Source of the DNA: Pseudovirgaria hyperparasitica
Lineage: Eukaryota
NCBI GenBank assembly: GCA_010093815.1
Contig: ML996583.1
DNA: 64,000 nt
Strand: one strand, 5' to 3'
Shown piece after piece: positions 24,401 to 40,177 of this stretch (within the stretch, counting starts at the first letter, position 1; every line of letters begins with the position of its first letter). Under the pieces are notes generated by a model, which worked only from the letters and a program-made list of their open reading frames with translations, ran no database searches and had not been told where the DNA came from. The position numbers and the translations under genes are program-made.

Positions 24401-24637
24401 CGCAAGCGCAAGGAAGAACTCCGTGCTGGTGTGCTGAGCATTGTGGATGAGATGTGTGGAGGAGGTGGTGCGGCTCGAGTCAGCGAGGTTGTTAAGAGGC
24501 TTGGTGAGGCCGTGAGTGCTCAGATCGAGTCACAGGAGGTGATGGACGCGCTGAAGTCGTTGGAGAGCGAGGGACGCGTGATGCTTGGTGGCGATGGCGC
24601 AAGGAGGACTGTCAGGAGAGTCACGGGCGTTGTATGA
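21466..24637 (+). CDS. MCM4: DNA replication licensing factor MCM4 (Cdc54), 3 exons
   Basis: S/P-rich N-terminal tail, zinc finger, GDPSTAKSQ Walker A, CCIDEFDKM Walker B, SRFD arginine finger, TATTRQLESMIRLAEAHAK. Confidence 0.97.
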
Positions 24638-26470
24638 GCATGATAATTAAAGGTTATGTGGATTGATTGTATCAGCTGGGGGTAGCATGAGATGGCGACG
24701 ACAATGATCACGACAACGACGGCGGCATGGAATGGTATAGCATGGCATGGATTACTGTGGGTAATGAGCTCAGTGGTTTCGGTGGTGGTATCAAACCTTG
24801 TATTGTCTTTGCTCTGCTGCATGTCTACATTCTTATCATAGGCCCTCCCTCTTTTCCTCCTCTTTTCGACTTCTTTCAAGGCATTCAGGGATGCATACTA
24901 TGCGACTGATCTGCTGCTTGAGAAAACCCACATGATGGCTAAGCTCGACTCGACTCGAGATGCTGCTAGTCCTTAACACAAATTCAATTTCTGCACTCTG
25001 TTTCGAGCCAGAATTCGCTCTACGTTTGTTACCGATAGAGGGGCACTGATCTTGTAAGGGCGTTTTGGACCCCTTGGAACCTCATGTCTGTGTGCGTGTG
25101 TGTGCATGCATGCCCGAATATCGCCCGGTTTCCGCCTACGCCCTTCCGTCCCTGAGCCTGGTCCAAGCACCGGGTGCGTACTTATGAGCATGGGATTCGC
25201 TCGCAAAAGGGGTGCGTATATCTAGTACCATCCGCCACCACCGCTCTGGCCCTGCAGCCCTATAGGGTGGATCCATGCATGTCGCCGGGTGACCCTGATC
25301 AGATACACGCACAGAAATAGGACATGTCTGTTCTCCAGGGACATTGCTTATTTCTCCAAGGAGTAACCTCCCTGTCTTGATATCGTCGTCGTAGTCGGCG
25401 AGGCAGGTCAGGAAAACATTTGCGTACCGAAAGGAAAGGAATGGAGGCAGACTGACACGTGAAGACGGTATGGTTCACAGGGTGCAGGTTGTGGGACTGT
25501 GCACATGGATTCATATGCGAGAAATCTATGTGATGTGTGTGAAAGACAGTTCGATCGAGATCTAATTGGATGACGCCCTTTTCCGTTCCTTTGGATACTT
25601 ACTGTTGCTGTAAACATGGTTGGACTGCTAACGGCGGTGCTGCTCGCCGCGTGCAGGGGCTCGTCCCGGTGGATGATGATGCTAGCTAGTGAGGTGAAGG
25701 TGCTCGACGATGATGAAATATTGTTTCTTCTTCATGGAATCCTTGCATAGATTTTTTTTCCGGCATAGGGCCAGTAAAAGGAAATTTAAAGATTCAAGAA
25801 ATAGAAAGGGACCGGATCAGGGGGTCAGGGTGGGTCGTCCGGGTGTTCGCGAACCCTGATGTATTGTGATTGGAGACGCAGTAACACCTGGTACCTGACA
25901 AGGCGAGGTGAGAGAGCTACTACTGTAGCGCTTCACATATAATTAGAGATAGAATCAGATATAGCTAGAAAGATAACGGTACATAGGATATACTTTATGT
26001 ACGCCGAAGTACGCCGAAGTTCAAGACTCCGCGTATAACTCGTATACAAGCTAATACCATCTGGGTTGGTTTGGCAGGTAGGGCTAATTAGCGGCGAAAA
26101 GCAGGGAGCTCAAGCCTGCCTGTCATGTCGGCTGTGCCACGCGGGACTTTCGGTAGATCGGCGATAGTTGATCGCCTGCACGGGGTCCTAATGCAGCTGT
26201 GGATCCGCTCGCTTCTGCAGGCGCCGTTGGGAAGTGGAGCCCGTGTTGTCGTCCCCACCTAAGTAAGGTAGTAACTACCTTAGTACACTTTCGTACCATA
26301 CACACTGCACACCACTACCTACACCCACGCCCGGTAATTCCACGCTCCAGCTCCCTCTCCCACCTACTGTGCCCAACTACTGTGTGCATCAGATCTCTCG
26401 ACACTCGAGCAAAAGCTCGGACCGACTGCAAGAAAGACAAACTCATCCTCTCTGTCGATGTAGAGATACC

Positions 26471-27266
26471 ATGTCCATTGCAGCTACTAAACAAACAATG
26501 TCTTCGCCCAAGTACGAATACACCAGTCTGTCCGATTCTCACGACGAGATGAAGGAGGACGGTCTCATCGCTCGTCCTCATGCTTCCCATACTGGGATCA
26601 ATCGATGGGGCTTCTTCGCTGCCGGCGTGTTGTCGACGCTCGCTGCAGTCTTCGTCGTCTGGGTCGTCAGTCTACATGTTCACATCCCAGCACATAACTC
26701 TGAAGCTGATGGTACGTCAATGCCTTACAAAATACAAGCAAATATACATCTATTCCCCCCAATAAAATCGATCTATCTACTGCTACACAACTGAGCCAGT
26801 TTATGCCAAACTAACGAACACATCAGCTCTCCTCCTCCTCCGCAAACCACACTTCATGACACACGCCACTGAGTCCATCTACGCCGTGCCACAATCCGTG
26901 CAGTCCGACGAGGACTGGCGTCTGCTCTTCCCACTGCGCGGTGCCCGCTTCACGAGCGAGGACGAGGCTCGCCCGTTTACGCTGTCTGTCTTCCACCAGC
27001 TGCATTGTCTGGCCAGTATCCGGCGCGTGTACTTTGACCTGCAGACGGGCGAGGGCAGTGCTATTGATGCGTCGACACATGGGCATATCCGGCACTGTAT
27101 TGACTTTCTGCGGCAGGTGGTGATGTGTAATGCGGATCGCACCAAGGAGATTTATGGGACGGATAGCTTTGAGGCGCAGCATATGTGTTACGATTGGGAT
27201 GAGGTTCTGGAGAGTACGGAGCCGTGGACGTTGGCTCTTGAGGACAAGGATGAGGATGAGGAATAG
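26471..27266 (+). CDS. DUF3328/UstYa-like oxidase 1 (about 226 aa; exons 26471-26711, 26827-27266)
   Basis: N-terminal TM helix (WGFFAAGVLSTLAAVFVVWVV); SVFHQLHCL and HIRHCIDFLRQVVMCNAD = two HxxHC motifs; C-terminal HMCYDWD. Confidence 0.92.
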
Positions 27267-27412
27267 GGGGGCGCGTTATTTTGTGCTGCTAGCTCAGGCT
27301 GTGAGACAGATTGGACTTATGTCGAGTAGTATAGGGAGAAGAAATGCTTATCATGATGAAGCGAGTATTTTATGACGCACAACACGACGGAAAACTTAAT
27401 TTAAGACGTATG

Positions 27413-28390
27413 TTACAAAGTCGGATTCTTCAACACACTCATCTCCTCCGCTGAGATCTGCCTGTCTGCCGTTGATGCCATCAGCGCATCCCAATCCACA
27501 CAGCGCTCCAGGATGCGCGTGCCGTTGACCATAGGCTTCGTGCTTTTATCCCAATACATAGTGATCAGGTCTGAGACGTCAGGGTGGCACATAAGAACAG
27601 CCCTGAGCCGATCCATGCAATGGTCTGCTCCAGTCAGCTGAACAGTTTCCTGCTGGATGCCTCTTCTACATGGCCAAAAGATGGACATATCTTTTTTTAA
27701 AAAAAAAAACCAGAAAGGAACAGTGCAAAACTTACCAACATGCTCAGAAATGTACTTCACCTCATACTCGGTAGCATTGGGATAGTAGTAATCGCGGTCC
27801 TTCCACATACGCGCAAAATTCAGACAGTGCAGCTCATGAAACACGCCCAGCCAGGCAAGATAGCCACTGTCGCCGCTACCAGCATCATCAGTATCTCCGT
27901 CGCCGCCCATGGCAACGCTCGTGCGGCCATTGCGTGCCAGTTCGGCTGCGGTGACGCGGATGCGTTTGCGGTCCAGTAGCGAGTCCCACTGTGCGTCCAT
28001 GTCTGGCGTTGGCGGGCCAAAGTAGCCGCTTGTGGAGCGCAGTTCCTGTGGCGTGGATGCGTACTGGATGTCGAGGCTGGGGATGGCGAGGAGGGCTGTC
28101 TGGCCGGGTGCTGGGTAGTCTGCGGCGTGTGAGTGGAAGGGGAAGAAGGAGGCATTCGTGTAGATGTAGAGCCAGGCGAAGAAGGTGTAGCAAAAGATGA
28201 GGAGTGTGTGTATGATTACAGAGCGTGTGAGATGGGGCATTTTGGATTTTAGAGGGGTTGTGTGGGTGCGTTGGAGCCATGGAGTTGTGTCGTCGATGTC
28301 GTTGTCATCGTCGTCATTGATGGTGGTGCTGTTTATGTCGGTGTCGAAGGAGGTGGTGGATTTGAGGAGGTGGGCGTGTTCGATGGCCAT
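27413..28390 (-). CDS. DUF3328/UstYa-like oxidase 2 (about 288 aa; intron 27625-27735)
   Basis: TM helix (SVIIHTLLIFCYTFFAWLYIY), YFGPPTPDMDAQWDSLL, GYLAWLGVFHELHCL; after splicing EHVDHCMDRLRAVLMCHPD; CVDWD. Confidence 0.92.
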   Translation of the reverse strand: MAIEHAHLLKSTTSFDTDINSTTINDDDDNDIDDTTPWLQRTHTTPLKSKMPHLTRSVIIHTLLIFCYTFFAWLYIYTNASFFPFHSHAADYPAPGQTALLAIPSLDIQYASTPQELRSTSGYFGPPTPDMDAQWDSLLDRKRIRVTAAELARNGRTSVAMGGDGDTDDAGSGDSGYLAWLGVFHELHCLNFARMWKDRDYYYPNATEYEVKYISEHVGKFCTVPFWFFFLKKDMSIFWPCRRGIQQETVQLTGADHCMDRLRAVLMCHPDVSDLITMYWDKSTKPMVNGTRILERCVDWDALMASTADRQISAEEMSVLKNPTL

Positions 28391-29089
28391 GGTGTTTTGT
28401 TGGTGTGAGGTAGACTTTGATGTGCGATGGTAGGCAGTGGGAATGACTGTGGTATCGCGATTACAAGGACCACACGTCTGGAGTGTATCTTCAGTCTTGT
28501 GGATGTGGAAGCTTGCTCAGTATTCTGAGAGGCTGTAGTAGAAGGAAGGGGGACTAATCATTGACGAGGCGCATGGACCATATCCAAGCTCACGAAGAAG
28601 TGCAAGTGTATGGCTCGCCTACAGCATTTGAGGGGTTCCTGCCGTTCACGGGTGTATTACCGTTGTTTCCATATTGCCATGATGCAGAAACTAAAACTAG
28701 TCCCCAAGCCAGGGTCCCCAGTCACACTTTCATCCCGTCACGCCATGCTCCTGTCCATGCGAGGTATTCCTCGCCGATGTCAGCCTTTCCAAACGACTTT
28801 TCACCAATGATTTTTCATCCCTTCACGTCGACTTCGTTTACGGGTGCACTGTCATATCGGGCCAGAGCGGTATATCCCGTCTGTTGTGTTCGTGCATGGG
28901 CCTCGCAAAGGTACACCCCCCTTGAGGGATACCACTTCTTACGCGGGCCCAAACGTGTCATTTCAGCGCGACCCAATGGATTATTGTGAACCCTTATTGA
29001 ACTAGGTGTTCTTGATACGAGGTACTCTTCAATTGTCGTCCTAGGATAGACAGGAAGTCATGCCAAGCAGGCTGTTGGATGCAGACGCC

Positions 29090-29168
29090 GATGCTAGATG
29101 CTAGATGCTAGATGCCAGCTGCTCAGATGCTAGATGATGGATGCTGGGTCCTGGATCCCAGATGCTAA
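29090..29168. repeat. GATGCTA 7-mer tandem repeat (about 4 contiguous copies plus degenerate copies)
   Basis: gatgcta-gatgcta-gatgcta-gatgc at 29090-29115, further gatgct(a) copies to about 29168. Confidence 0.8.
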
Positions 29169-30633
29169 TGCAGGTGATCTACAGGTCCAGTGAGCAATCT
29201 GAGATCTTCATGTCAAGGTTGCATGCAGGTGATGTTCCTCCAAGGTTCGGTTCTTAGATAAGGTAAGGTTGGTATTTGAGTGCTTAGGTAATTCTAGTGT
29301 GAAGCTTTGCGTAGCGCTAGGACGCTTACGGGACTAGCGCCATCGGCCCGTTCTAGGTAGACATATCGGCGACTCAACGTCGCGGCCAGAGAAGCTGTCT
29401 TCATGTTACTTTCTACATAGTGTATCTGTCGTAAGAGACATCGTATTGACGAGTGTTCTTACACATACATCAGATCATCACCGCTCCTTGCGTCAACTCT
29501 TTTGCCTTCTTCCCAAGACGCCACCAGTCACCACCACCAGCTTCACTACCGCATCCGTACACCCTTGAGGGGTCAAGATAGTTCCTTGGAAGGCTGTGAC
29601 TCCCTTAGATCCACGAGTGTTTACGATCTTCTATTGCTCCCCCTCCCTTGGTAGCAGTATCAAAGGTAATCTGAGTCTGGGCACATCCGTCTGGTCCACA
29701 TTCATTCTCCATTCCAAGATCAGTGGTAACCACAGCGTTCTACTGGCTCGGGACCATTCCACTAGAACAGTGAGAGCAAGGCCGGAACGCCCTTCGTAGC
29801 TGGCTTTACATGGTGTTCCTGCCGCGTATGGCGCCAAGTAGTGTGGTCAAGGACGGTCACGATGGATGTACCAGAAGCTCCGTCGGCAGCGTTATTGACC
29901 CGATTCCTGCGCCCGCTATCAAAAATCTGACTCTATCTCATTGGCGTAATGCTGATAATAGTCTGGTGCTGCTCATGCAATGCATCCGGTAGGCTTTTCT
30001 ATGCGCTGCGTCCGGCTTGTTATGCTCTGATCCCGTCTGCTTGGTCCGCTTCACATCAAGACCACATATGATTGTTCAATAATTGCACCCAATGCTACTT
30101 CCATATTCCACATGAGCACAAGCCACTTCCCTCTCGGGAACTCGTCATGGGCACGTATTCGCCGGGCTCTTATCTTTTCACCCACATTCCACGCTAGCCC
30201 GACTTCCTTCATGTTTTTTGAGCGTGCTCGTTCTGCCTCCATCTTCCGATCACGTTGCGTGCGCTCTCAAACTCTTCACCTCTGGTTTACTATCCTGTTG
30301 TACGGCACAGCTTTTAGTCAGTCAGCTCTTCGTGTACGTTGGGCTCTCAACTCTGGATCCCAACCATCCATGCCATATCGGTAAAAGGAGATTCTATAAG
30401 CCTTCCCCTTCCAGACGACCAGACTCGCCACCCAGAAAACGCTTTGTTCACCGTACACCCCATTCGCCAAGCATCTCAAATACTATAAACGTCGCTCTCA
30501 CGTCCATATTTAAAATTTTCTTCCACTGCTTCTCTGTCCCAAAACCCTCGACTTACCATCCAGTCCTCACGCTTTCAAAGTACAATACCTATCAATCTCC
30601 ATTCAAGAACCAGCCAACCACTTTGATCTCAAC

Positions 30634-31372
30634 ATGCAGTTCATCACCACTGTTGCCCTTATGGCTGTTATAGCTACCGGTACTGTTGCTGCCCCTACGA
30701 AGCTTCACGTTGGTGAGTAGATCCCAATTTTCCTTGCTGCATATATACATACCAGCTTTCCACATACTAACAACTACCCAGCGCACCTCGTCTCAAAGAC
30801 TGTCGCTGATGATGATGTGGTCTATCCTGAGTACAAGCGCGGTGACACTGGTAAGCCTTTGAGCATACAGTAATTTTCCAGATAGAGCTTGCTAACGGTT
30901 TTTAGTGTCACGCAACTTGGTTGATGACGACGTAGTCTATCCTGACTATAAGCGTGGTTTGGTTGACGACGATGTTGTCTACCCTGACTACAAACGTGAC
31001 CTGGTCGACGACGATGTTGTCTACCCTGACTACAAACGTGACCTGGTCGACGACGATGTTGTCTACCCTGACTACAAACGTGACCTGGTCGATGATGACG
31101 TTGTGTATCCCGACTACAAGCGCGATCTGGTTGATGATGATGTGGTCTACCCTGACTACAAGCGCGGTCTGGTTGATGATGATGTGGTCTACCCTGACTA
31201 CAAGCGCGGTCTCGTCGATGACGATGTCGTATATCCTGACTACAAGCGCGACCTGGTTGACGACGACGTTGTTTACCCCGACTACAAGCGTGACCTGGTC
31301 GATGATGACGTTGTCTATCCCGACTACAAGCGTGACCTGGTCGATGATGACGTTGTCTATCCCGATTATTAG
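30634..31372 (+). CDS. Kex2-processed repeat protein (KEP), putative dikaritin RiPP precursor, 204 aa; exons 30634-30712, 30782-30850, 30906-31372
   Basis: Spliced: MQFITTVALMAVIATGTVAAPTKLHVAHLVSKTVADDDVVYPEYKRGDTVSR followed by 11 x (N/G/D)LVDDDVVYPDY separated by KR; signal peptide ending VAA-P; introns GTGAGT..TACTAAC..CAG and GTAAGC..GCTAAC..TAG keep frame. Confidence 0.93.
30914..31372 (+). repeat. Coding 42-bp tandem repeat x11 (precursor repeat units)
   Basis: Directly visible 42-nt periodicity; units 3 and 4 are identical at nucleotide level. Confidence 0.97.
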
Positions 31373-32284
31373 GCGTAAAAGTCATTCTCCCTTATCATTC
31401 TGACGGATTTTCCTTCATATATGGGCACGTCTCTTGATGTAAACATGGAGCTGTTGGTGCAAGAGTGTAACACTTCTTCTCCATGTTAAGAGCTGGAACA
31501 GCTATGGAATACTTTGATTGCAAGTTGCTGAGGGTCCTTTGATGGCTTAGTGTTATCATGGTCTTATAGTATCATTGACATATCAGATACATCATATCTT
31601 CATCTACCCATGTGACTACCGCATCTATTCGCCTGAACTCATTACCAATGACATACGCCATAGCTTCTTCCCACATCCATCGAACATTCAGAATCATCAT
31701 CAGTCCAGTTCTCAGCCAACCTCGTATTGCACCCAACATTCTTCACAGCCCCTCCTCTCGGAATATAAGCCACTCATCAGCAACCATAACAAACATCCAA
31801 GTCCAGAAGCGACCATCCTGCCGCAAGAAGCAACCACAGTTACCAAACTGCCTAGCTAAGCGCCGTGTATAATTTGAAATCCTCCGTGCCGCGAGCGCCG
31901 CCCAGTAGCTACTTGTTGATAACAAATTCTGTATAAGCGCCCTATAAGCGCTAAAAGTCGCGGGAAATACCCGCTGTTTGGGGGGGGGCTGTCCGGGTCC
32001 CGTCGGACATGTCAGGAGATATGTCTGACTTGGGACCGGAGCGATGTCTATAGCGTGGCATGGTATTACATTGCATGGCATGGCATGGAATGGAGGCTGA
32101 TGCGGGGGAGGACCCACAGGGCTGTGTGTGTTTGTATGTGTGTGTGTGTGCTATGGCTTGCAGGTAGGAGGTCTAGGCAGACGGACAGACAAACGAACTA
32201 TTCACTGATGGACCGTGTCTTGACGTTGGAGGAGGATGGTTTTGATTGGGGGGATTTTCCGAGGGGGGGACGGAAGGGTGTTGG

Positions 32285-32285
<1 letters not shown>

Positions 32286-32327
<42 letters not shown>
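32286..32327. repeat. (TG)21 microsatellite
   Basis: Perfect TG run. Confidence 0.95.
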
Positions 32328-32328
<1 letters not shown>

Positions 32329-32385
32329 TGATTTGAGTTTTTTGGTGAACGGGGTCGGATGGAGATGGACGGACGATGGACGATG

Positions 32386-32510
32386 GATGATGATGATGAT
32401 GATAATGATGATGATAATGATGATGATAATGATGATGATAATGATGATGATAATGATGATGATAATGATGATGATAATGATGATGATAATGATGATGATG
32501 ATGATGATGA
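32386..32510. repeat. (GAT)n / (GATGATGATAAT)x8 compound microsatellite
   Basis: GAT run with eight regularly spaced AAT interruptions. Confidence 0.95.
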
Positions 32511-33557
32511 AGGGGGGTGAGATCTTGGGCTTGGGGCTGTTGTGGTCGTTTGTGTGGGAGGGTGGTGGTGGTGTTGGTGTTTGTGTCGATGTTGTTGGTC
32601 GGATGAGGAGGTGGAGGAAGAGTAAAGTGATTTTTGGCTCTCTCTTGTGTAGTGCATGCATGCAGTGTGTAATTCCGGATTCGGGCAGGCGTCTATTGCG
32701 CTTCGCTCGCTTGGAGTGGGGAAAGTGATGTCGATGAGGAGGTACGTGGAGGTTGAAATGGGCCAATCACTTCAGACTACGCGTGTATCAGTCGTTGACA
32801 CGACACGATCAATTGTTGCCCTGGAAATAGCAAGTAATTTATGTATCAAGGGATACTCCGCCCTGTGTACCAATGTTATTGTCAGGTGATCTCCCAGGAA
32901 CGCAATAGATTCATGTTCTGAAACGCCCTCCGCAATCGTTATATGCTTCAAGGTCAAACCCTCCAGTTTCTCTGCATGGTGTTACAAGGATTCTCTGGCT
33001 GGAAGAATACAGGGCTGGTAGTTCGTACCACGTACATGTGGATCTCTGGATCATGACAGAGATGGTGCTGTGCCGTGGACGCGGCTCAACCATGCCGCTG
33101 GTAACTTCCTAGCATGGTCCTGTTGTTTAGGCTATTTTTTGGCGTTTACGTTACGCCTCCCGTGTCTAAACCTGTGCCGCGCGCCTAACTATATGCGAAG
33201 TTAGACTTCCGTCGGGGGACGTTGAAATACGAATCCGGGGGCGTATGGATAAGCCTCCGAGTGTCTGAGCCCATGTACTGTGACGGCTCTAGAGGTCACA
33301 AATCTAGACCCGGCCGAGACGGTCACGCTACAGTTTCTCTGAATACCGATGGATTGGATCGTGATGTATTGAATCGAAGACTTGATATGAAGTAGCAGAT
33401 ACATCGGGAGAAAGAGGTCCGTCGGTAGATCCACCACTCTAGTGCGGCGGCTAGCAACCCTATGTACCGCTGCAGACGTTGCGCCAACAGCGCCAACAAG
33501 CGCTCTAACGCTTTGCTATACGGAACATCGGGAACGTAGATGGTCCCGGAGCCGATA

Positions 33558-34701
33558 CTACTTCAAGTAGCGGTAGCATAGCGGACCACTATCTGTGTGC
33601 AAGATGTCACGGATACGCGTCTTAGGCCCAAGCTTATCAAGTTCCAGCTCGTCGTCGACCATAGTCCCAAAGATGGTTTCGGCACGGTGTTCTGGGTCCG
33701 CGAGCTGCCATTCTGCCCAGAGACGGTCGACCTGGCAGTGATGGAAGTAGAAGATTGGGTCTAGGAGAGATCAGTTACGATGTTCGTGTTCAAGAGAGTA
33801 ATTGGGCCATATACCGTTTGGAGAAGTGAATTCGAAGAATTCCCCCTGAATCCAGCGTGGGATGGCTTCATGTGCTGCAAACTCTAGTGTATTCCAGAAA
33901 TCGTAGTAGTCGTCCTTTTGCATGATGTCGTCGAGTTTCTCTGGTTGCAACTCTGCGCTGTACCTGTCAGACTTCTCGCCAGTCAGAAATCCTCGTGACA
34001 GACAGTGATGGGTTTCATTTGCACCGAAGCGAAGCGCCTGGTAGTGAGAGAATGGTCCTGTTTCGACACATCTTCCGTGACCCACAGACTCTTCACCTGT
34101 CCCATTGCCACCTATCCCATAAACATTGTCCCATACAGGAGCTTGATCGAGTGCTTCCCAGTCGAGAACCCAATTCCAGTATGGGATGGTGCCTTTAAAC
34201 CCACAGTGCGTCCGCAAGTCGTTCTCGAAATTGTGGAGCAGATAACGATGCCATGGCAGAAAAAGTGTTGTATCATGACCTATATCGAGTTTGTCAGAAA
34301 GTGTTCCATGATCTTTTCGAATACTTACCAATCTTGCCTGCATGGCTGTGCAAGTTTGCGTAGTCGCCGTACAGTGACTGATCGTCACGATAAAGTCCTG
34401 GAGTGGTCTGAAGGCACTTGATGGCGTCGATATACTCCAACTGTTCATCTTTGCGCAGATTACGCCATTCTCGGCGGAATTGGATCTTAGAACATCCTCC
34501 AGGCTCGCCGATATGCGTCGTCAGCGATTCAGAGTCTTCCTCAAATAGGCTGCGAGGAGAGAAAGTGAAGGCAAGCAGCAGATAGAAAATGAGGCAGGTC
34601 AAGCCTGTGGCAGATGCATACAAGAAGCGATTTGCAGTGAAGATCGACTTCTTTTGAGCAGCTTCAACTTCATAATCGAGGTCGGTCTTGAGTTCAGCCA
34701 T
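33558..34701 (-). CDS. Tyrosinase-like type-3 copper protein (UstQ/PhomQ-like), about 346 aa; introns 34280-34328, 33761-33814
   Basis: N-terminal TM anchor, C..RREWRNL..EQLEYIDAIKCL, CuA H..GHDTTLFLPWHR, IPYWNW, HCLSR, AAHEAIP, SPNDPIFYFHHCQVDRLW, LCYRY. Confidence 0.9.
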
Positions 34702-35787: not shown

Positions 35788-37288
35788 ATGACTTCACCAG
35801 ATCCTTCCCTAGTTTCGGAGCTTACTGTAAAGGTCGCAAATCAGGCAGCCCGATATGCGGACTTTTTGAAATCTGGAGAGAACGACCAAGCTCCAGTCGT
35901 TGCTAAACAGCTCTCTGAAACCCGACTCGAGCTTCTTGGTTCCACTCGAGACCTTCACAATATCGTGCAAGGACCATTTGACTATGTTCGGGACGAACTG
36001 GCTGGCGTATGTTAAGACAAAACATCAAGTTGTGCTACTTCCTATTCTGATATTCCTAGCATTGCAACCTGATCTATCTTCATGCTGTGTACAAGTTCAA
36101 TCTGCATAAAGTCGTGCCTCTCGATGGAGACATCTCCTATCAAGAACTGGCACGCATATGCAAAGTCGAAGAAGACAAGCTTCGTCGGATTATCCGCTTC
36201 GCCATTACAAGACGCTTCTTCCAGGAGAAACGTGAGGGCTATGTCAGCCACACTGCGGAATCGAAAGTTATCATAAGCAAACCAGAAATGTTCGATTACG
36301 TCGGCACAATCTGTGAAGAGATGTGGCCTTCTGCCATACAGGTACAGCAAATCTGATATCCTGTTTGTCTGCCCGCAAATTTTGACTAACTCTCGAACTT
36401 ATAGGCTGTACCCGCTATGATCAAGTGGCCTGGGTCCGAAGAGCGAAAGCATTCGGCAGGTGATGTTGTACCCCTACCTTGTAATTTTACTAACACATAT
36501 AGGGCTCTGCTCTTGCCAATGGTAGTGAGCTTGCTATGTTTGACATACTCAAAGATCACCCTGAACGGGCGGCAAGATTCTCGCGCTTCATGAACATGTT
36601 CAGCTCGGCTCCGTTCTTTCGTTTCGATTTCCTCTGTGACGCGTATGACTGGAGCAATGTGACTAAGATGGTTGATGTCGGTGGAGGACACGGTGGACAA
36701 GCTATTGCACTCGCCCAGAAATTTACATCTCTACACTGCGTCGTCCAAGATCTTGCAGTCATTGACACCGAAAACGAAGCCTCAGAGAGAATTCCTGTTG
36801 AACTCCGGAGCAGGGTCGAGTTTCAGGGCCACAACTTCTTTTCGGAACAGCCTATCAAGGATGCAGATGTCTATCACTTCCGCTGGATTTTCCACGACTG
36901 GTCAGACAAGGATTGTGTAGCGATTCTCCGGGCTCTTATTCCAGCTCTTAAACCCGGCGCGAAGGTCATCATATCCGAAGGCGTCATTCCACGGCCTGGA
37001 ACAGTATCTCGCTACGTAGAAGGGACCATGAGGTGAGTTCCCTGAGGTCCCTGATTTCCCGTGCTACACGAAAATGAGTGCCGCACAAGTTTGTCATGCC
37101 ATGCGAATGCTAACATTCATGTTAGAGTTATGGATCTTGTGATGATGGAACTAAATAACGGCAAAGAACGAGATATGATTCAATGGAAGAATCTGTTTGA
37201 GACTGCCGACGAACGCTTCAGTCTTGAGGCTGTCAAGAAAGTAGAGGGATCCAGATTGTCATACATCATATACAACTGGACTGGCTAG
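35788..37288 (+). CDS. SAM-dependent O-methyltransferase (Methyltransf_2 family), about 414 aa, 5 exons
   Basis: Dimerisation region (LRRIIRFAI..FFQE..GYVSHTAES), VDVGGGHG SAM motif, HNFFSEQPIKDADVYHFRWIFHDWSD, NGKER. Confidence 0.92.
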
Positions 37289-37999
37289 ACGAATGCCATG
37301 ATACGATTCATGGACTAATCGATTCATCGCGTGAAAGGTTGCTAGAAGAGCTTGTGTATGGGCATAGAGTGTTAACCATGAGCTGCATGATAGCTGTTTC
37401 GAACATTGTAGTACGATGGCGTTGTACACGAGGAATACAAAAAATTTCACAAAACCCACGACGAATATCCTCGAAGACTGATGCCACTAATGAAGGATAT
37501 CGAACAATGTGTCATGGTTATCAGAATATTGACGTCTGGAAATCCTGACGGTAGGCTGGAGACGCGCCAAGACCACCTAGCCGGTCGGCCCCCAAATCAA
37601 CTCCATCACAGCTGAACAAAGGCAGAAGAAGCGGTTGTCTGCCTCTATTTACATTGGGAAGACCAATTTCTAATTTGATAGCCGTTGGTTTACAGACATG
37701 TTTTCAAGCAAAGACTTAAAGTCTCGATTTGATCGAGTCTCGGCAAAAACGCTCTCCGTTGGCGCTAGACAGTACCTAAGGAGTGTCAGTGAATATAAAG
37801 TAAGTACATCTAACACGTCCGACCTGGGATGTGTATGGAGCCGAGCCTCGTTATTGGCTCATGTTAAAGACCTCATCTTCATGCTGTCGCTCCGATTTGC
37901 ACGCCCCGCTTCCGCTTTTTCCACTACTTTGAAATTTACAACCAATGTCCTGGATTTGAAGTCTAGAAAGTCAGGATTCTGCGTTTATTATCTGACATA

Positions 38000-40177
38000 T
38001 TGCAGACTAAAGATCTCGCGGCGTTCACATACAGTCCACTTACTGGGCCGAGATGCATCCGGCTATTGCACATACAGGCCGGAGGAGACACTGATGCATT
38101 AACATGTGATGTCTCTGAGGTTGACCTGGATGCTGAACCAATTTTTGAAGCTTTATCGTACACGTGGGACCAGGATCACGCGTGGGATAACGAACCAGAA
38201 CCAGAATCAGAACGAAAGAGAAAGCCTATTCTATGTAACGGCCAATCTTGTGAGGTCACCATGAACTTGTATCATGCTCTCACAGAGTTTCGACGACGGA
38301 AGATGTACTCCCCTATCTGGATTGATCAGATTTGTATAAACCAAAAAGATGACCAAGAAAAGAATCTTCAGCTCGGCCTAATGGCTGAAATCTACAGGTC
38401 GGCGGTCCGAGTTATAGTCTGGCTCGGAATTATGTCTAAGACGAGAAATTCTGCGTTGGACTTCCTATTGGCTCTGCCTCCATTACCTGAGATAGACCAG
38501 TTACGTCGATCAAAATCCGTGCCAATGGTAGCTGAAGAAACAGATATGTCAGCCCCTTCTCAGCTGCCAGCACGCCCTAAAATGAGCAAGATTAGCCGCT
38601 CGTTTGATGTGATCAATACAGTTTCCAATGTACTCAGTGAGCAATACCACTGGCTCGGAGTTCTGCGTCTGTTGCGACGAAGCTGGTTCAACCGGACGTG
38701 GACTCTGCAGGAACTACTTCTCGCGCAAGACCTGCTGATAATGATGGGAGATCGTGATATACCCCCAGCAGTTCTTGCTGACGCTTCGAAGAGAGTCGTG
38801 GACTTCTACGCGAACGATCCCCTGATGTTCTCGGAGGGAGTGGGCCGAGATATCATCGATCGCCACCGCTACATGGACAGGATTCCAGCTTTTTTCAAGG
38901 CTAAAGAAGACTTTAAGCAAGGAAAGCGGTTTACCGCTGAGGACTACCTTTCCACCATCAGAGTACGCGGTGTTACGAACCCAAGAGATAAGGTCATCGC
39001 CGGTAAGGCAATTCTGGAGCACGATGTTGTGCCGGTAGCGGATTTTGATGCCCCTACCGCCAATATATTTATCAACTTTGCACATGTCCTTTATGAAGAT
39101 ACTGGAGTCTTTTCACTTTCGTTGGTTGGCGATACAGCTCCTGCAATAGCAGGCCTCCCCTCATGGGTTCCAGATCTGGTCCGCCCGTTGAGGCCGACAC
39201 CTTTGAAATATTGTGGCTGCTCAAGTTTCGATTCTCCGATTCCTGTACAGGGCAATGACATTAGGTTCGAAGACAAGACAATACATTTACGAGGCGCGAA
39301 ATGGGATGTGGTACGGGACATCGGTGAGACCAGTTGGAGCTGGGAATATTCTCTGTGGTATTTCATTCCTTACGACAAGCCGCCTGTGCCAATGCGAACA
39401 TGCTGGACTGATAACAAGGAACGATTCGGAGATATCTTCCCAGTACTAGAGCAGATGGGACCCATCTACAAGCCTACCGGAGAGCGGACAGCCGATGCAT
39501 TCTGGAAGACGCTGATCGGCAATATCCAATCGCAAAGTGCCAACGATGATGAGGCGTGGGGAGAGAGCTTCCGATTATACCTTTCATTCTCGCTCTGGCA
39601 GATCCGTCAGCTCGCTCAGCACAAGGACAATCCCATCATCAAGCTAGTAGACGGTTCTGATAAATGGCTGCCAAGCATAGTGACCGATGCGATCGAGGCG
39701 CTGGAGCACCGTCTCGCGCTCTACATGGCTCTAGACGAAGTCCAACACGACGAGACAAACACACCAAGGACATCGCTGCGCCAAACAATCCTCGACTTCG
39801 CACGCCGGATCTTCGGTACCGAGAATCTCAGCGAACTCAGCGCGTGGAAGGGCTACAAGGCCGAGACGAGCTCTGCCCTGCACGACAAAGGCCTGTATGA
39901 ACAAGTCCAGCTCTTCGGCAATGCCTTCACCCAGGTCTACGACGGACGAAGGATTCTGGTCTCGGAGAAGGGGTACATGGGCATCGCGCCAGAGTCCGTC
40001 AAGGTGGGAGATGTCATCTTCCTGGTTGCTGGGGCTGGGACGCCGTATGTCTTCAGACCCGTCAAAGACGTCGAGAACACATACACCCTGGTCGGCGAGG
40101 CCTATCTCCACGGCCTAACTCCCGACATCGTGTCTGCAGAGGGCGAGTGGAAAGTAGAAAGCATTACAGTGATATAA
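38000..40177 (+). CDS. HET-domain (HET-6-like) heterokaryon incompatibility protein; start uncertain
   Basis: IRLLHI, FEALSYTW, IWIDQICINQ..EKNLQLGLMAEIY..AVRVIVWLG, WFNRTWTLQE, LPSWVPD, C-terminal GYMGIAP..GD..PYVFRP..LVGEAYLHG. Confidence 0.88.
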   Translation: MQTKDLAAFTYSPLTGPRCIRLLHIQAGGDTDALTCDVSEVDLDAEPIFEALSYTWDQDHAWDNEPEPESERKRKPILCNGQSCEVTMNLYHALTEFRRRKMYSPIWIDQICINQKDDQEKNLQLGLMAEIYRSAVRVIVWLGIMSKTRNSALDFLLALPPLPEIDQLRRSKSVPMVAEETDMSAPSQLPARPKMSKISRSFDVINTVSNVLSEQYHWLGVLRLLRRSWFNRTWTLQELLLAQDLLIMMGDRDIPPAVLADASKRVVDFYANDPLMFSEGVGRDIIDRHRYMDRIPAFFKAKEDFKQGKRFTAEDYLSTIRVRGVTNPRDKVIAGKAILEHDVVPVADFDAPTANIFINFAHVLYEDTGVFSLSLVGDTAPAIAGLPSWVPDLVRPLRPTPLKYCGCSSFDSPIPVQGNDIRFEDKTIHLRGAKWDVVRDIGETSWSWEYSLWYFIPYDKPPVPMRTCWTDNKERFGDIFPVLEQMGPIYKPTGERTADAFWKTLIGNIQSQSANDDEAWGESFRLYLSFSLWQIRQLAQHKDNPIIKLVDGSDKWLPSIVTDAIEALEHRLALYMALDEVQHDETNTPRTSLRQTILDFARRIFGTENLSELSAWKGYKAETSSALHDKGLYEQVQLFGNAFTQVYDGRRILVSEKGYMGIAPESVKVGDVIFLVAGAGTPYVFRPVKDVENTYTLVGEAYLHGLTPDIVSAEGEWKVESITVI

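What the first reader, a model, noticed from the sequence alone, without database searches (positions are those of the whole stretch)
31334..31372. Core prediction VVYPDY: stop codon replaces the last KR, and Tyr spacing matches asperipin-2a
Seen: the last unit ends ...YPDY-stop, with TAG exactly where AAG (Lys) sits in other units. Every released unit would therefore end in Tyr with no follower. The first residue of each unit varies (N/G/D) while DDDVVYP-x-Y is invariant. Inference: acidic xLVDDD is the leader/recognition part and VVYPDY is the core. Its Tyr3/Tyr6 spacing equals that of the asperipin-2a core FYYTGY, in which (as I recall) a DUF3328 enzyme forms aryl-ether links from Tyr6 to Tyr3 and from Tyr3 to residue 1. 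That predicts a mono- or bicyclic peptide, further hydroxylated/halogenated and methylated.
Basis: inference. Interest (0 to 1): 0.8.

Follow-up and report, generated by a model that had tools for sequence, protein, structure and literature searches.

The report
Unannotated fungal cyclic-peptide precursor, VVYPDY core
The flagged bases are the last of twelve repeats in a spliced, unannotated fungal gene that very probably supplies the peptide VVYPDY to neighbouring oxidases and a methyltransferase, one member of a so far undescribed family of ustiloxin-class peptide gene clusters found in three classes of fungi.

Summary
Window 31334-31372 encodes DLVDDDVVYPDY followed by TAG, in the codon slot that holds AAG or AAA (Lys) in the ten preceding units. 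The unit closes a three-exon gene (30634-31372). Spliced contigs confirm both introns. The product has an N-terminal hydrophobic signal-like segment and 12 units, xLVDDDVVYP(D/E)Y-KR.

The gene sits among two convergent UstYa/DUF3328 genes, a tyrosinase and an O-methyltransferase. This makes it a dikaritin-class RiPP cluster.

The new result is a family of 25 related precursors from lichen fungi, Botrytis/Sclerotinia and metagenome contigs, with 144 units of the form [V/I]-x-[Y/W]-P-[D/E]-(x)-Y-KR.
- Conservation starts exactly at the V/I, and the residue before it varies.
- 7 of 25 precursors end in Tyr directly before the stop.
- 16 of 19 metagenome loci carry the same UstYa pair, 10 carry the methyltransferase, and none carries a tyrosinase.

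The VVYPDY core prediction is therefore supported. The asperipin analogy is only partly supported. The Tyr3/Tyr6 spacing occurs in 4 of 25 precursors, and the enzyme set and unit layout differ from the asperipin cluster. Nothing supports halogenation.

The cross-link pattern remains inferred. The motif was absent from the papers I could search. Interest is moderate.

The parts
26471..27266 (+). UstYa/DUF3328 gene 1 ('UstYa1'), 225 aa. Exons 26471-26711 and 26827-27266. N-terminal membrane segment. Two HxxHC motifs (HQLHC, HIRHC).
   Evidence: Pfam PF11807, E 4.5e-18. The 115-nt GT..AG intron is skipped by contigs of runs X3 and X4. Spliced translation. Motifs and hydropathy. Counterparts lie in 16 of 19 related loci.
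27413..28390 (-). UstYa/DUF3328 gene 2 ('UstYa2'), 288 aa, convergent with gene 1. Exons 28390-27736 and 27624-27413. N-terminal membrane segment. HELHC and HVDHC; the second motif spans the intron.
   Evidence: Pfam PF11807, E 2.1e-29. The 111-nt intron is skipped by a contig of run X3. The spliced product is identical to P0001, annotated 'hypothetical protein EJ05DRAFT_170796 [Pseudovirgaria hyperparasitica]'. Motifs.
30634..31372 (+). Precursor peptide gene, 204 aa. Exons 30634-30712, 30782-30850 and 30906-31372. A hydrophobic N-terminus (signal-peptide-like) is followed by 12 units.
   Evidence: Translation. Both introns are skipped by a 387-nt contig of run X3 that starts at 30484. Hydropathy. 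It is absent from the 5.8-billion-protein collection (0 hits, not even itself).
30817..30834 (+). First core copy, VVYPEY (Glu variant), in exon 2. It is preceded by TVADDD and followed by KR.
30914..31372 (+). Tandem array of eleven 42-nt units, (N/G/D)LVDDDVVYPDY-KR. The last unit lacks KR.
   Evidence: Tandem Repeats Finder. Per-unit table and synonymous/non-synonymous counts.
31334..31372 (+). The flagged terminal unit, DLVDDDVVYPDY, plus a TAG stop in the Lys-codon slot.
   Evidence: The same arrangement occurs in L003 and L013-15.
33558..34701 (-). Tyrosinase gene, 346 aa under my model. Exons 34701-34329, 34279-33815 and 33760-33558. N-terminal membrane segment. It lies between the precursor and the methyltransferase.
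   Evidence: Pfam PF00264, E 1e-20 and 2.3e-9 on two exons. The nearest solved structures are catechol oxidases and tyrosinases. Splice sites were inferred by eye from GT..AG, branch sites and frame and were not checked against RNA.
35788..37288 (+). O-methyltransferase-family gene (Methyltransf_2), at least 4 exons; the limits are approximate.
   Evidence: Pfam PF00891, E 1.2e-25. The nearest solved structures are phenolic small-molecule O-methyltransferases (8pha, GedA 7wh9, DnrK). Homologs of about 45% identity lie beside the UstYa pair in 10 of 19 related loci.

Best explanation
The flagged bases are the terminal unit of a 12-copy, Kex2-processed precursor of a UstYa-dependent (dikaritin-class) RiPP. 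The host genome is most likely Pseudovirgaria hyperparasitica.

Proposed route:
1. The precursor enters the ER through its N-terminal hydrophobic segment (inferred).
2. A Kex2-type protease cuts after each KR in the Golgi, and a carboxypeptidase trims the K and R. This is established for yeast alpha-factor and assumed for ustiloxin; here it is inferred. Every unit, including the last, then ends in Tyr.
3. The two membrane-anchored UstYa paralogs, each with two HxxHC motifs, oxidise the conserved block V1-V2-Y3-P4-D5-Y6.
4. The acidic spacer xLVDDD serves as recognition or spacing sequence and is trimmed back to V1.

My best guess for the chemistry is one aryl-to-beta-carbon cross-link between the aromatic residue 3 and the tertiary C-beta of V/I at position 1. 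This i,i+2 geometry is the one used, in reverse order, by ustiloxin and phomopsin (Tyr1-x-Ile3). A second UstYa-catalysed step would involve the invariant C-terminal Tyr. In this species a tyrosinase would then hydroxylate a Tyr ring and a phenol-type O-methyltransferase would methylate it.

What is shown: the gene model, the array, selection on the peptide, the cluster composition, the family and its synteny.
What is inferred: processing, cross-link positions and tailoring.

Sub-odds: dikaritin-class precursor 0.9; core = VVYPDY 0.7; a V1-Y3 link 0.45; exactly the asperipin bicyclic pattern 0.2.
For: - Gene model: the spliced contigs of run X3 give one open frame with a hydrophobic N-terminus and 12 KR-delimited units.
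- Selection on the peptide: 296 synonymous against 31 non-synonymous codon differences, all of the latter at unit position 1.
- Cluster: two UstYa genes (PF11807), a tyrosinase (PF00264) and a Methyltransf_2 gene lie within 10 kb. No other Pfam domain was found between 24.6 and 38 kb. Both UstYa proteins carry two HxxHC motifs and an N-terminal membrane segment, as does the tyrosinase.
- Family: 13 database proteins and 11 translated loci share the unit. In 144 units from 25 precursors, position 1 is V (58) or I (86) with no exception, and position -1 is variable.
- N-termini are homologous too, with A-(A/V)-P-(T/L/I) after the hydrophobic stretch (alignment A1).
- Synteny: 16 of 19 metagenome loci hold one UstYa1-like and one UstYa2-like gene, convergent as in the window, 1-4 kb from the precursor. 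The three loci without them are contigs of 1.2-2.7 kb. Ten loci also hold the O-methyltransferase homolog.
- Tyr-stop terminal units occur in 7 of 25 precursors.
- Literature: UstQ, UstYa and UstYb make the first cyclic ustiloxin intermediate and UstM methylates it (passages of PMC6514808).
Against: - No product has been seen, so every chemical step is inferred.
- Tyrosinase is absent from all 19 related loci even at E<=5, including the 7 loci with 10 kb on both sides. It is not part of the conserved machinery, and its role here is a guess. It counts as a cluster member only because it lies between the precursor and the methyltransferase.
- Within the array, LVDDD is as invariant as VVYPDY, so this species alone does not separate spacer from core.
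- One relative has Trp at position 3 in 4 of 4 units (P0044). A phenol-oxygen ether cannot be general for that position.
- The methyltransferase class is not constant in the family. L014 has a Methyltransf_11/25 enzyme instead.
- Runs X3 and X4 are not on record as RNA. That they are transcript assemblies is my inference from the GT..AG skips.
Confidence: 0.7

Rival explanations
1. VVYPDY is made into an asperipin-2a-like bicyclic peptide by phenol-O to C-beta ethers, Tyr6 to Tyr3 and Tyr3 to Val1, installed by DUF3328 enzymes alone.
For: - Tyr sits at positions 3 and 6 as in FYYTGY.
- Related clusters lack a tyrosinase, so the conserved oxidation is tyrosinase-independent, as in asperipin.
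- Two UstYa paralogs could each make one ring.
- V/I is invariant two residues before the aromatic residue.
Against: - 21 of 25 family precursors have YPDxY, which would change the second ring size, and one has Trp at position 3.
- The cluster has neither the reductase nor the transporter of the apr cluster, and the units have 14 residues rather than 8.
- The asperipin residue assignments are recalled and were not seen in any passage I read.
Confidence: 0.2
2. A ustiloxin/phomopsin-type product. The core starts at Tyr (YPDY). A tyrosinase-derived ring oxygen is linked to the beta-carbon of the residue two positions on, and the N-terminal Tyr is N-methylated.
For: - The enzyme set is the one that makes ustiloxin F: tyrosinase, two UstY proteins and a methyltransferase.
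- The 14-residue unit matches phomopsin.
Against: - There is no Ile or Val two residues after Tyr; the residue there is Asp. V/I-x before the Tyr is invariant in 144 of 144 units, which a YPDY core leaves unexplained.
- Relatives have no tyrosinase.
- The methyltransferase is of the phenolic O-methyltransferase class. Passages of PMC12048977 say O-methyltransferases have not been reported in characterised dikaritin clusters.
Confidence: 0.08
3. The peptides are released as linear, unmodified Kex2 products (pheromone-like or other secreted 12-mers or 6-mers), and the neighbouring enzymes act on something else.
For: - Most Kex2-repeat proteins have no DUF3328 neighbour; 22% do (abstract of PMC7329392).
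- The whole 12-mer is under selection.
Against: The precursor and the UstYa pair stay together in the window and in 16 of the 16 related loci long enough to judge. This holds across three arrangements of the pair relative to the precursor.
Confidence: 0.07
4. The Tyr-stop is only a neutral truncation at the edge of the array (an AAG-to-TAG nonsense change) and says nothing about the core boundary.
For: - TAG differs from AAG by one base, and CGT follows after one extra G.
- 18 of 25 relatives end otherwise, and those with a readable end mostly keep a final KR plus 3-11 junk residues.
Against: - The same ending arose with different codons in at least three lineages seen at DNA level: TAG here, TAA in L003 and TAG in L013-15.
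- It is neutral precisely because nothing after Tyr is needed, which is the point at issue.
Confidence: 0.3

Closest known systems
Asperipin-2a pathway (aprA/aprY/aprR/aprT, Aspergillus flavus)
   Same: Both have a Kex2-repeat precursor with a hexapeptide core ending in Tyr directly before KR, Tyr at positions 3 and 6, and a DUF3328 oxidase beside the gene. The related clusters here work without a tyrosinase, as asperipin does.
   Different: Here there are two conserved UstYa paralogs, a tyrosinase and an O-methyltransferase, and no reductase or transporter. Units have 14 residues with an acidic spacer rather than 8. Position 1 is aliphatic V/I rather than Phe, P4-D5 are invariant, and spacing to the last Tyr varies across the family.
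Ustiloxin and phomopsin pathways (UstA/UstQ/UstYa/UstYb/UstM; PhomA/PhomQ/PhomM/PhomY)
   Same: The enzyme classes match: tyrosinase, two or more UstY proteins and a methyltransferase. Units are 13-14 residues with an acidic stretch before the core. An aromatic residue and a beta-branched aliphatic residue sit two positions apart.
   Different: The order is reversed ([V/I]-x-Tyr rather than Tyr-x-Ile), so the core does not start with Tyr. The methyltransferase is of the phenolic O-methyltransferase class. There is no P450, FMO, PLP enzyme, S41 peptidase or regulator. The tyrosinase is missing from all related loci.
Lichen 'Clan R1' dikaritin-like clusters of Parmeliaceae (PMC12048977)
   Same: They hold two UstY genes, a tyrosinase and an O-methyltransferase. 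No repeated precursor was found by the authors (passages). The best non-self relative of UstYa2 is a Letharia lupina (Parmeliaceae) protein at 42% identity.
   Different: Clan R1 also has an FGE-sulfatase and places the O-methyltransferase between the two UstY genes; neither is so here. Orthology was not tested. The related precursors I found come from Teloschistaceae, not Parmeliaceae.
Plant burpitides such as cyclopeptide alkaloids (BURP-domain copper cyclases)
   Same: These are a functional analogy only. Repeated cores and an aromatic side chain cross-linked to the beta-carbon of an aliphatic residue two positions upstream are recalled knowledge, not drawn from any passage I read. PMC12186524 was seen as a search listing and abstract only. 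It describes copper-dependent BURP cyclases that cross-link side chains, and its title says a peptide recognition sequence guides this.
   Different: The enzyme family and kingdom are unrelated. Nothing was tested here.

Membership tests
Dikaritin-class fungal RiPP (UstYa-dependent, Kex2-repeat precursor) | A UstYa/DUF3328 gene next to the precursor gene | tested here: met
   Two PF11807 genes lie 2.2-4 kb upstream of the precursor.
Dikaritin-class fungal RiPP (UstYa-dependent, Kex2-repeat precursor) | Two HxxHC motifs in the UstYa protein (criterion as relayed in PMC12048977) | tested here: met
   UstYa1 has HQLHC at residue 137 and HIRHC at 167. UstYa2 has HELHC at 185 and HVDHC at 217.
Dikaritin-class fungal RiPP (UstYa-dependent, Kex2-repeat precursor) | Precursor with an N-terminal ER signal peptide | tested here: inconclusive
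   A hydrophobic 19-mer lies at residues 3-21 (mean Kyte-Doolittle 1.8) and is followed by AP, as in relatives. No signal-peptide predictor was available.
Dikaritin-class fungal RiPP (UstYa-dependent, Kex2-repeat precursor) | Repeated core units delimited by dibasic Kex2 sites | tested here: met
   There are 12 units, 11 followed by KR and the last by the stop.
Dikaritin-class fungal RiPP (UstYa-dependent, Kex2-repeat precursor) | A cross-linked peptide product | not testable with these tools
   This needs mass spectrometry or NMR.
Asperipin-2a type | A single UstYa homolog as the only oxidase, with a reductase (aprR) and a transporter (aprT) | tested here: not met
   There are two UstYa genes plus a tyrosinase. 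No reductase or transporter domain was found between 24.6 and 38 kb.
Asperipin-2a type | 8-residue units (core plus KR, no spacer) | tested here: not met
   Units have 14 residues with a 6-residue acidic spacer. The 8-residue figure comes from PMC7329392.
Asperipin-2a type | Tyr at core positions 3 and 6 | tested here: met
   This holds in the window, but in only 4 of 25 family precursors.
Asperipin-2a type | UstYa protein orthologous to AprY | not tested
Ustiloxin/phomopsin type | Core begins with Tyr and has Ile two residues later (Y-x-I) | tested here: not met
   The core is V-V-Y-P-D-Y, and the residue two after Tyr3 is Asp.
Ustiloxin/phomopsin type | Tyrosinase plus two or more UstY genes in the cluster | tested here: met
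   Met at Pfam level only. Orthology to UstQ or PhomQ was not tested.
Ustiloxin/phomopsin type | An alpha-N-methyltransferase of the UstM/PhomM kind | tested here: inconclusive
   The methyltransferase is Methyltransf_2, nearest to phenolic O-methyltransferases. No UstM or PhomM sequence was available. PMC12048977 states that O-methyltransferases are not reported in characterised dikaritin clusters.
Lichen Clan R1 cluster | Two UstY genes, a tyrosinase, an O-methyltransferase between the UstY genes, and an FGE-sulfatase | tested here: not met
   The four enzyme classes are present, but no sulfatase domain was found and the O-methyltransferase is not between the UstY genes. Sequence orthology was not tested.

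The most novel reading that the evidence does not exclude
The [V/I]-x-[Y/W]-P-D-(x)-Y precursors define a fourth structural group of dikaritins. It has a 'reversed' aliphatic-then-aromatic cross-link topology and is made by a conserved pair of UstYa paralogs. It has been maintained across Dothideomycetes, Leotiomycetes (Botrytis, Sclerotinia) and lichen-forming Lecanoromycetes. Because these small intron-bearing genes are mostly unannotated, the same family may be the 'missing' precursor of the lichen UstY/tyrosinase/O-methyltransferase clusters for which no repeat precursor could be found.
Probability: 0.3. Interest if true: 0.65.

Novelty: new variant of a known kind. Interest (0 to 1): 0.5.

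Why it matters
- Only a few dikaritin scaffolds have been solved: ustiloxins, phomopsins, asperipin-2a, victorin and the epichloecyclins. Genome surveys list thousands of Kex2-repeat proteins with no defined core.
- Comparison across 25 precursors fixes both ends of a core without any chemistry. It also ties that core to a specific conserved pair of UstYa enzymes, which makes the reactions of two uncharacterised UstYa lineages directly testable.
- The family occurs in Botrytis and Sclerotinia and in lichen fungi. The window's host is, from recall, a hyperparasite of rust fungi. The product may therefore act in fungus-fungus or fungus-host interactions.
- The precursor is missing from the protein collection I searched. 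This shows why RiPP mining that relies on annotated proteins, such as the lichen survey, can fail to find precursors.

Tried and rejected
- Word-indexed protein search with exon 3 gave 0 hits. The exhaustive representative search was needed instead. Of its 145 hits I fetched 20 and kept nine short proteins that carry the motif. The other 125 were not inspected; I assumed they were low-complexity matches from their length and low identity.
- No RNA holder is listed for the locus.
- No whole genome is held for the window.
- Ding et al. 2016 is not held. What I say about PhomA, PhomQ and PhomM comes from review passages.
- The motif strings VVYPDY, VYPDY, YPDYKR, VVYPEY, DDVVYP, AYPDSYKR, AYPDAYKR and VYPDYRR, and the tag BCIN_03g05260, occur in no held paper. 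The four strings VVYPDY, YPDYKR, VYPDY and Pseudovirgaria occur in none of the three held supplements of PMC7329392. Neighbouring Botrytis locus tags led nowhere. The putative RiPP cluster on Sclerotinia sclerotiorum chromosome 3 (PMC6941272) could not be linked to this family from the text.
- UstYa2 has no relative among solved structures.
- I looked for a halogenase, P450, peptidase, transporter or regulator in the cluster and found none.
- I looked for a conserved gene between UstYa2 and the precursor and found none by tblastx. ORF 28558-28986 has only noise-level matches.
- I considered spacer removal by an alpha-factor-like X-Ala/X-Pro dipeptidyl aminopeptidase. Position -1 is A or P in 115 of 144 units, but it is D in the window and S in the Sclerotiniaceae, and spacer lengths are not always even. 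I rejected it as a general rule.
- An automatic splice search for the tyrosinase gave nothing, so I built the model by eye.
- Alignment A1 was too diverse for the locus scan. A narrower alignment, A2, was used.
Full report
**1. What is at the coordinates.**
Window 31334-31372 reads DLVDDDVVYPDY followed by TAG. It is the eleventh 42-nt unit of a tandem array. Tandem Repeats Finder gives 30918-31359, period 42, 10.5 copies and 88% matches. In the ten earlier units, codon 13 is AAG (7) or AAA (3) and codon 14 is CGT or CGC. In the last unit, codon 13 is TAG.

**2. Gene model.**
- The array is exon 3 of a gene that starts at ATG 30634.
- A 387-nt contig of run X3, starting at 30484, skips 30713-30781 and 30851-30905. 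Both skipped stretches are GT..AG.
- The same runs skip a 115-nt intron in the first UstYa gene (X3 and X4) and a 111-nt intron in the second (X3).
- The DNA-like runs X1 and X2 show no skips.
- The kind of X3 and X4 is not on record. I infer that they are transcript assemblies.
- The product has 204 residues. A hydrophobic N-terminus is followed by TVADDD-VVYPEY-KR and then eleven (N/G/D)LVDDD-VVYPDY units. Ten are followed by KR and the last by the stop.

**3. More than chance.**
Every codon from unit position 2 to 12 shows synonymous variation, yet no amino-acid change occurs at those positions in the 11 exon-3 units. Over 55 unit pairs there are 296 synonymous and 31 non-synonymous codon differences. 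All the non-synonymous ones are at unit position 1. Twelve of the 15 variable sites are third codon positions. The peptide sequence is therefore under purifying selection, and this includes LVDDD.

**4. Surroundings.**
Pfam scans of all stop-to-stop ORFs of 95 residues or more in the window (145 of 152; seven repeat-derived ORFs were left out) and of 79 smaller ORFs between 24.6 and 38 kb gave five cluster genes:
- UstYa gene 1, 26471-27266 (+).
- UstYa gene 2, 27413-28390 (-), convergent with gene 1.
- The precursor.
- A tyrosinase, 33558-34701 (-).
- A Methyltransf_2 gene, about 35788-37288 (+).

Both UstYa proteins carry two HxxHC motifs. They and the tyrosinase have an N-terminal membrane segment. 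No halogenase, P450, peptidase, transporter or regulator domain was found there. The flanks are housekeeping genes: MCM4 ends at 24634, and a HET-domain gene and a GH43 gene lie beyond 37.9 kb.

Spliced UstYa2 is identical to a protein annotated in Pseudovirgaria hyperparasitica. The precursor itself is not in the 5.8-billion-protein collection.

**5. Relatives of the precursor.**
- The exhaustive search of 1.84 billion representatives gave 145 hits. I fetched 20 of them.
- Nine of those 20 are short proteins with repeats of the same motif and, where the N-terminus is present, a hydrophobic leader. The other 125 hits were not inspected.
- A profile search added four more.
- The named members come from Seirophora villosa, S. 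scorigena, Rusavskia elegans and Haloplaca sp. (lichen fungi), and from Sclerotinia nivalis and Botrytis cinerea B05.10 (BCIN_03g05260, 'secreted protein').
- A scan of metagenome contigs with a five-sequence alignment gave 19 loci. Many are near-duplicates, and I count about five distinct precursor types.

**6. Where the core begins and ends.**
I tabulated 144 units from 25 precursors, 77 of them distinct. The pattern fixed only aromatic-[P/T]-[D/E]-(x)-Y plus a dibasic site or an end, and left the two preceding positions free.
- Position 1 is V (58) or I (86), without exception.
- Position 2 is A 121, V 18, I 3, T 1, S 1.
- The aromatic residue is Y 139, W 4, H 1.
- The residue before position 1 varies: A 109, D 12, T 7, S 6, P 6, N 2, R 1, M 1.
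- Positions -2 and -3 are acidic in 117 and 134 of 144 units.

Conservation thus starts exactly at the first Val of VVYPDY.

At the other end, 7 of 25 precursors stop directly after the last Tyr. At DNA level, L003 has TAC TAA where internal units have TAC AAA CGT, and L013-15 have TAC TAG. P0044's contig is only 471 nt long, so its end may be a contig end. Of the other 18, those with a readable end mostly carry KR plus 3-11 unrelated residues, and several are truncated or run-on annotations.

**7. Conserved machinery.**
I ran tblastn with the window's enzymes against the 19 loci.
- One UstYa1-like and one UstYa2-like gene, convergent as in the window, lie 1-4 kb from the precursor in 16 loci. 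The other three loci are contigs of 1.2-2.7 kb.
- Each query matches its own counterpart. In L014, for example, UstYa2 scores 134 bits on one gene and UstYa1 scores 65 bits on the other. Two paralog lineages are therefore retained.
- In L001 and L003-L012, the order UstYa1(+), UstYa2(-), about 2.3-2.6 kb, precursor(+) is the same as in the window.
- An O-methyltransferase homolog of about 45% identity lies beside the pair in 10 loci.
- L014 has a Methyltransf_11/25 enzyme instead.
- No locus has a tyrosinase, even at E<=5. This includes the 7 loci with 10 kb on both sides.
- tblastx found nothing else conserved.

**8. Reading.**
The conserved module is the precursor plus two UstYa paralogs, usually with a methyltransferase. 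The tyrosinase is an addition in this species. I count it as a cluster member because it lies between the precursor and the methyltransferase.

An invariant beta-branched V/I two residues before the aromatic residue mirrors the Tyr-x-Ile pair that is cross-linked in ustiloxin and phomopsin (passages of PMC7329392), but in reverse order. From recall, that reverse order is the one asperipin-2a uses between residue 1 and Tyr3. I therefore favour a link from residue 3 to the C-beta of residue 1, with a second UstYa step at the invariant last Tyr.

The methyltransferase is nearest to phenolic small-molecule O-methyltransferases among solved structures. O-methylation of a Tyr or hydroxy-Tyr ring is thus more likely than the N-terminal methylation seen in ustiloxin (passages of PMC11285071). 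All of this chemistry is inference.

**9. Against the asperipin analogy.**
- The 3/6 spacing holds in 4 of 25 precursors, and the rest have YPDxY.
- P0044 has Trp at position 3.
- The apr cluster has one UstYa homolog, a reductase and a transporter (PMC6514808), with 8-residue units (PMC7329392).
- The passages I saw give no residue numbers for the asperipin links.

**10. What is in print.**
- The motif strings and the Botrytis locus tag are in none of the held papers. Four of them were also searched in the held supplements of the Kex2-repeat survey and were absent.
- The lichen RiPP survey included Seirophora villosa and Rusavskia elegans (supplement list). It reported that no repeated precursor could be found for its two Parmeliaceae UstY clans, one of which combines two UstY genes, a tyrosinase and an O-methyltransferase (passages).
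- The best non-self relative of UstYa2 is from Letharia lupina, a member of that family, at 42% identity.
- This is a lead that the family found here could be that missing precursor. I could not test it.
- Ding et al. 2016 and bioRxiv supplements could not be read. A list of predicted cores there might already include this motif.

**11. Verdict.**
This is a real, expressed and unannotated dikaritin-class precursor. Its VVYPDY core is supported by comparative evidence, and it belongs to a family with a conserved UstYa pair that I found described in none of the papers I could search. The ring pattern is open, and halogenation has no support. Interest is moderate: the system is of a known kind, but the family, its reversed motif and its spread are new.

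Noticed in passing
window 28457-29223: Unspliced contigs of runs X3 (767 nt) and X4 (557 nt) cover the spacer between UstYa2 and the precursor. The longest ORF there (28558-28986, +) has no Pfam match and no relative in the 19 loci. It may be a long 5' UTR of UstYa2, a non-coding RNA from the shared divergent promoter region, or a small orphan gene.
   Followed up: partly
window 32176-32771: Long simple repeats lie between the precursor and the tyrosinase. They include a trinucleotide run that reads as poly-Ile, poly-Ser-Leu or poly-Asp-Asn depending on frame, and a dinucleotide run reading (CV)n or (TH)n.
   Followed up: no
L004 11162-13036; L014 18218-20116; L016 6181-8082: An aromatic amino-acid lyase gene (PF00221, E about 1e-129 to 1e-131) lies within 0.8-8 kb of the precursor in all three lichen-type loci scanned. 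None is in the window. It could be plain synteny or a cluster member.
   Followed up: no
L016 12942-14579; protein P0039: A cytochrome P450 gene lies directly beside the UstYa pair in L016. The Rusavskia elegans annotation P0039 fuses five precursor units to a P450 domain, which is probably a mis-joined gene model of two neighbours.
   Followed up: no
protein P0044 (95 aa): This family member has Trp in place of the first Tyr in all four units (VAWPDY). A simple phenol ether cannot form at that position. Its contig is only 471 nt long and its organism is unknown.
   Followed up: partly
window 37967-40174: A HET (heterokaryon incompatibility) domain gene lies directly after the methyltransferase. 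It is probably outside the cluster.
   Followed up: no
window 28641: There is a single G-to-A difference between the window and the run X3 contig, which comes from another sample of the same coded organism. No differences were listed elsewhere in the 26000-30960 stretch where X3 covers it (27 of 30 bins).
   Followed up: no
window 1-25000 and 41000-64000: The flanks are ordinary housekeeping genes: trehalose-phosphate synthase-like GT20, a protein kinase, condensin Cnd1, elongin A, THOC7, MCM4, GH43, ribosomal L44, Man1/Src1, GH131 with CBM1, a UBR-box protein, MCM2 and NIF3. The five-gene cluster is a small island among them.
   Followed up: no
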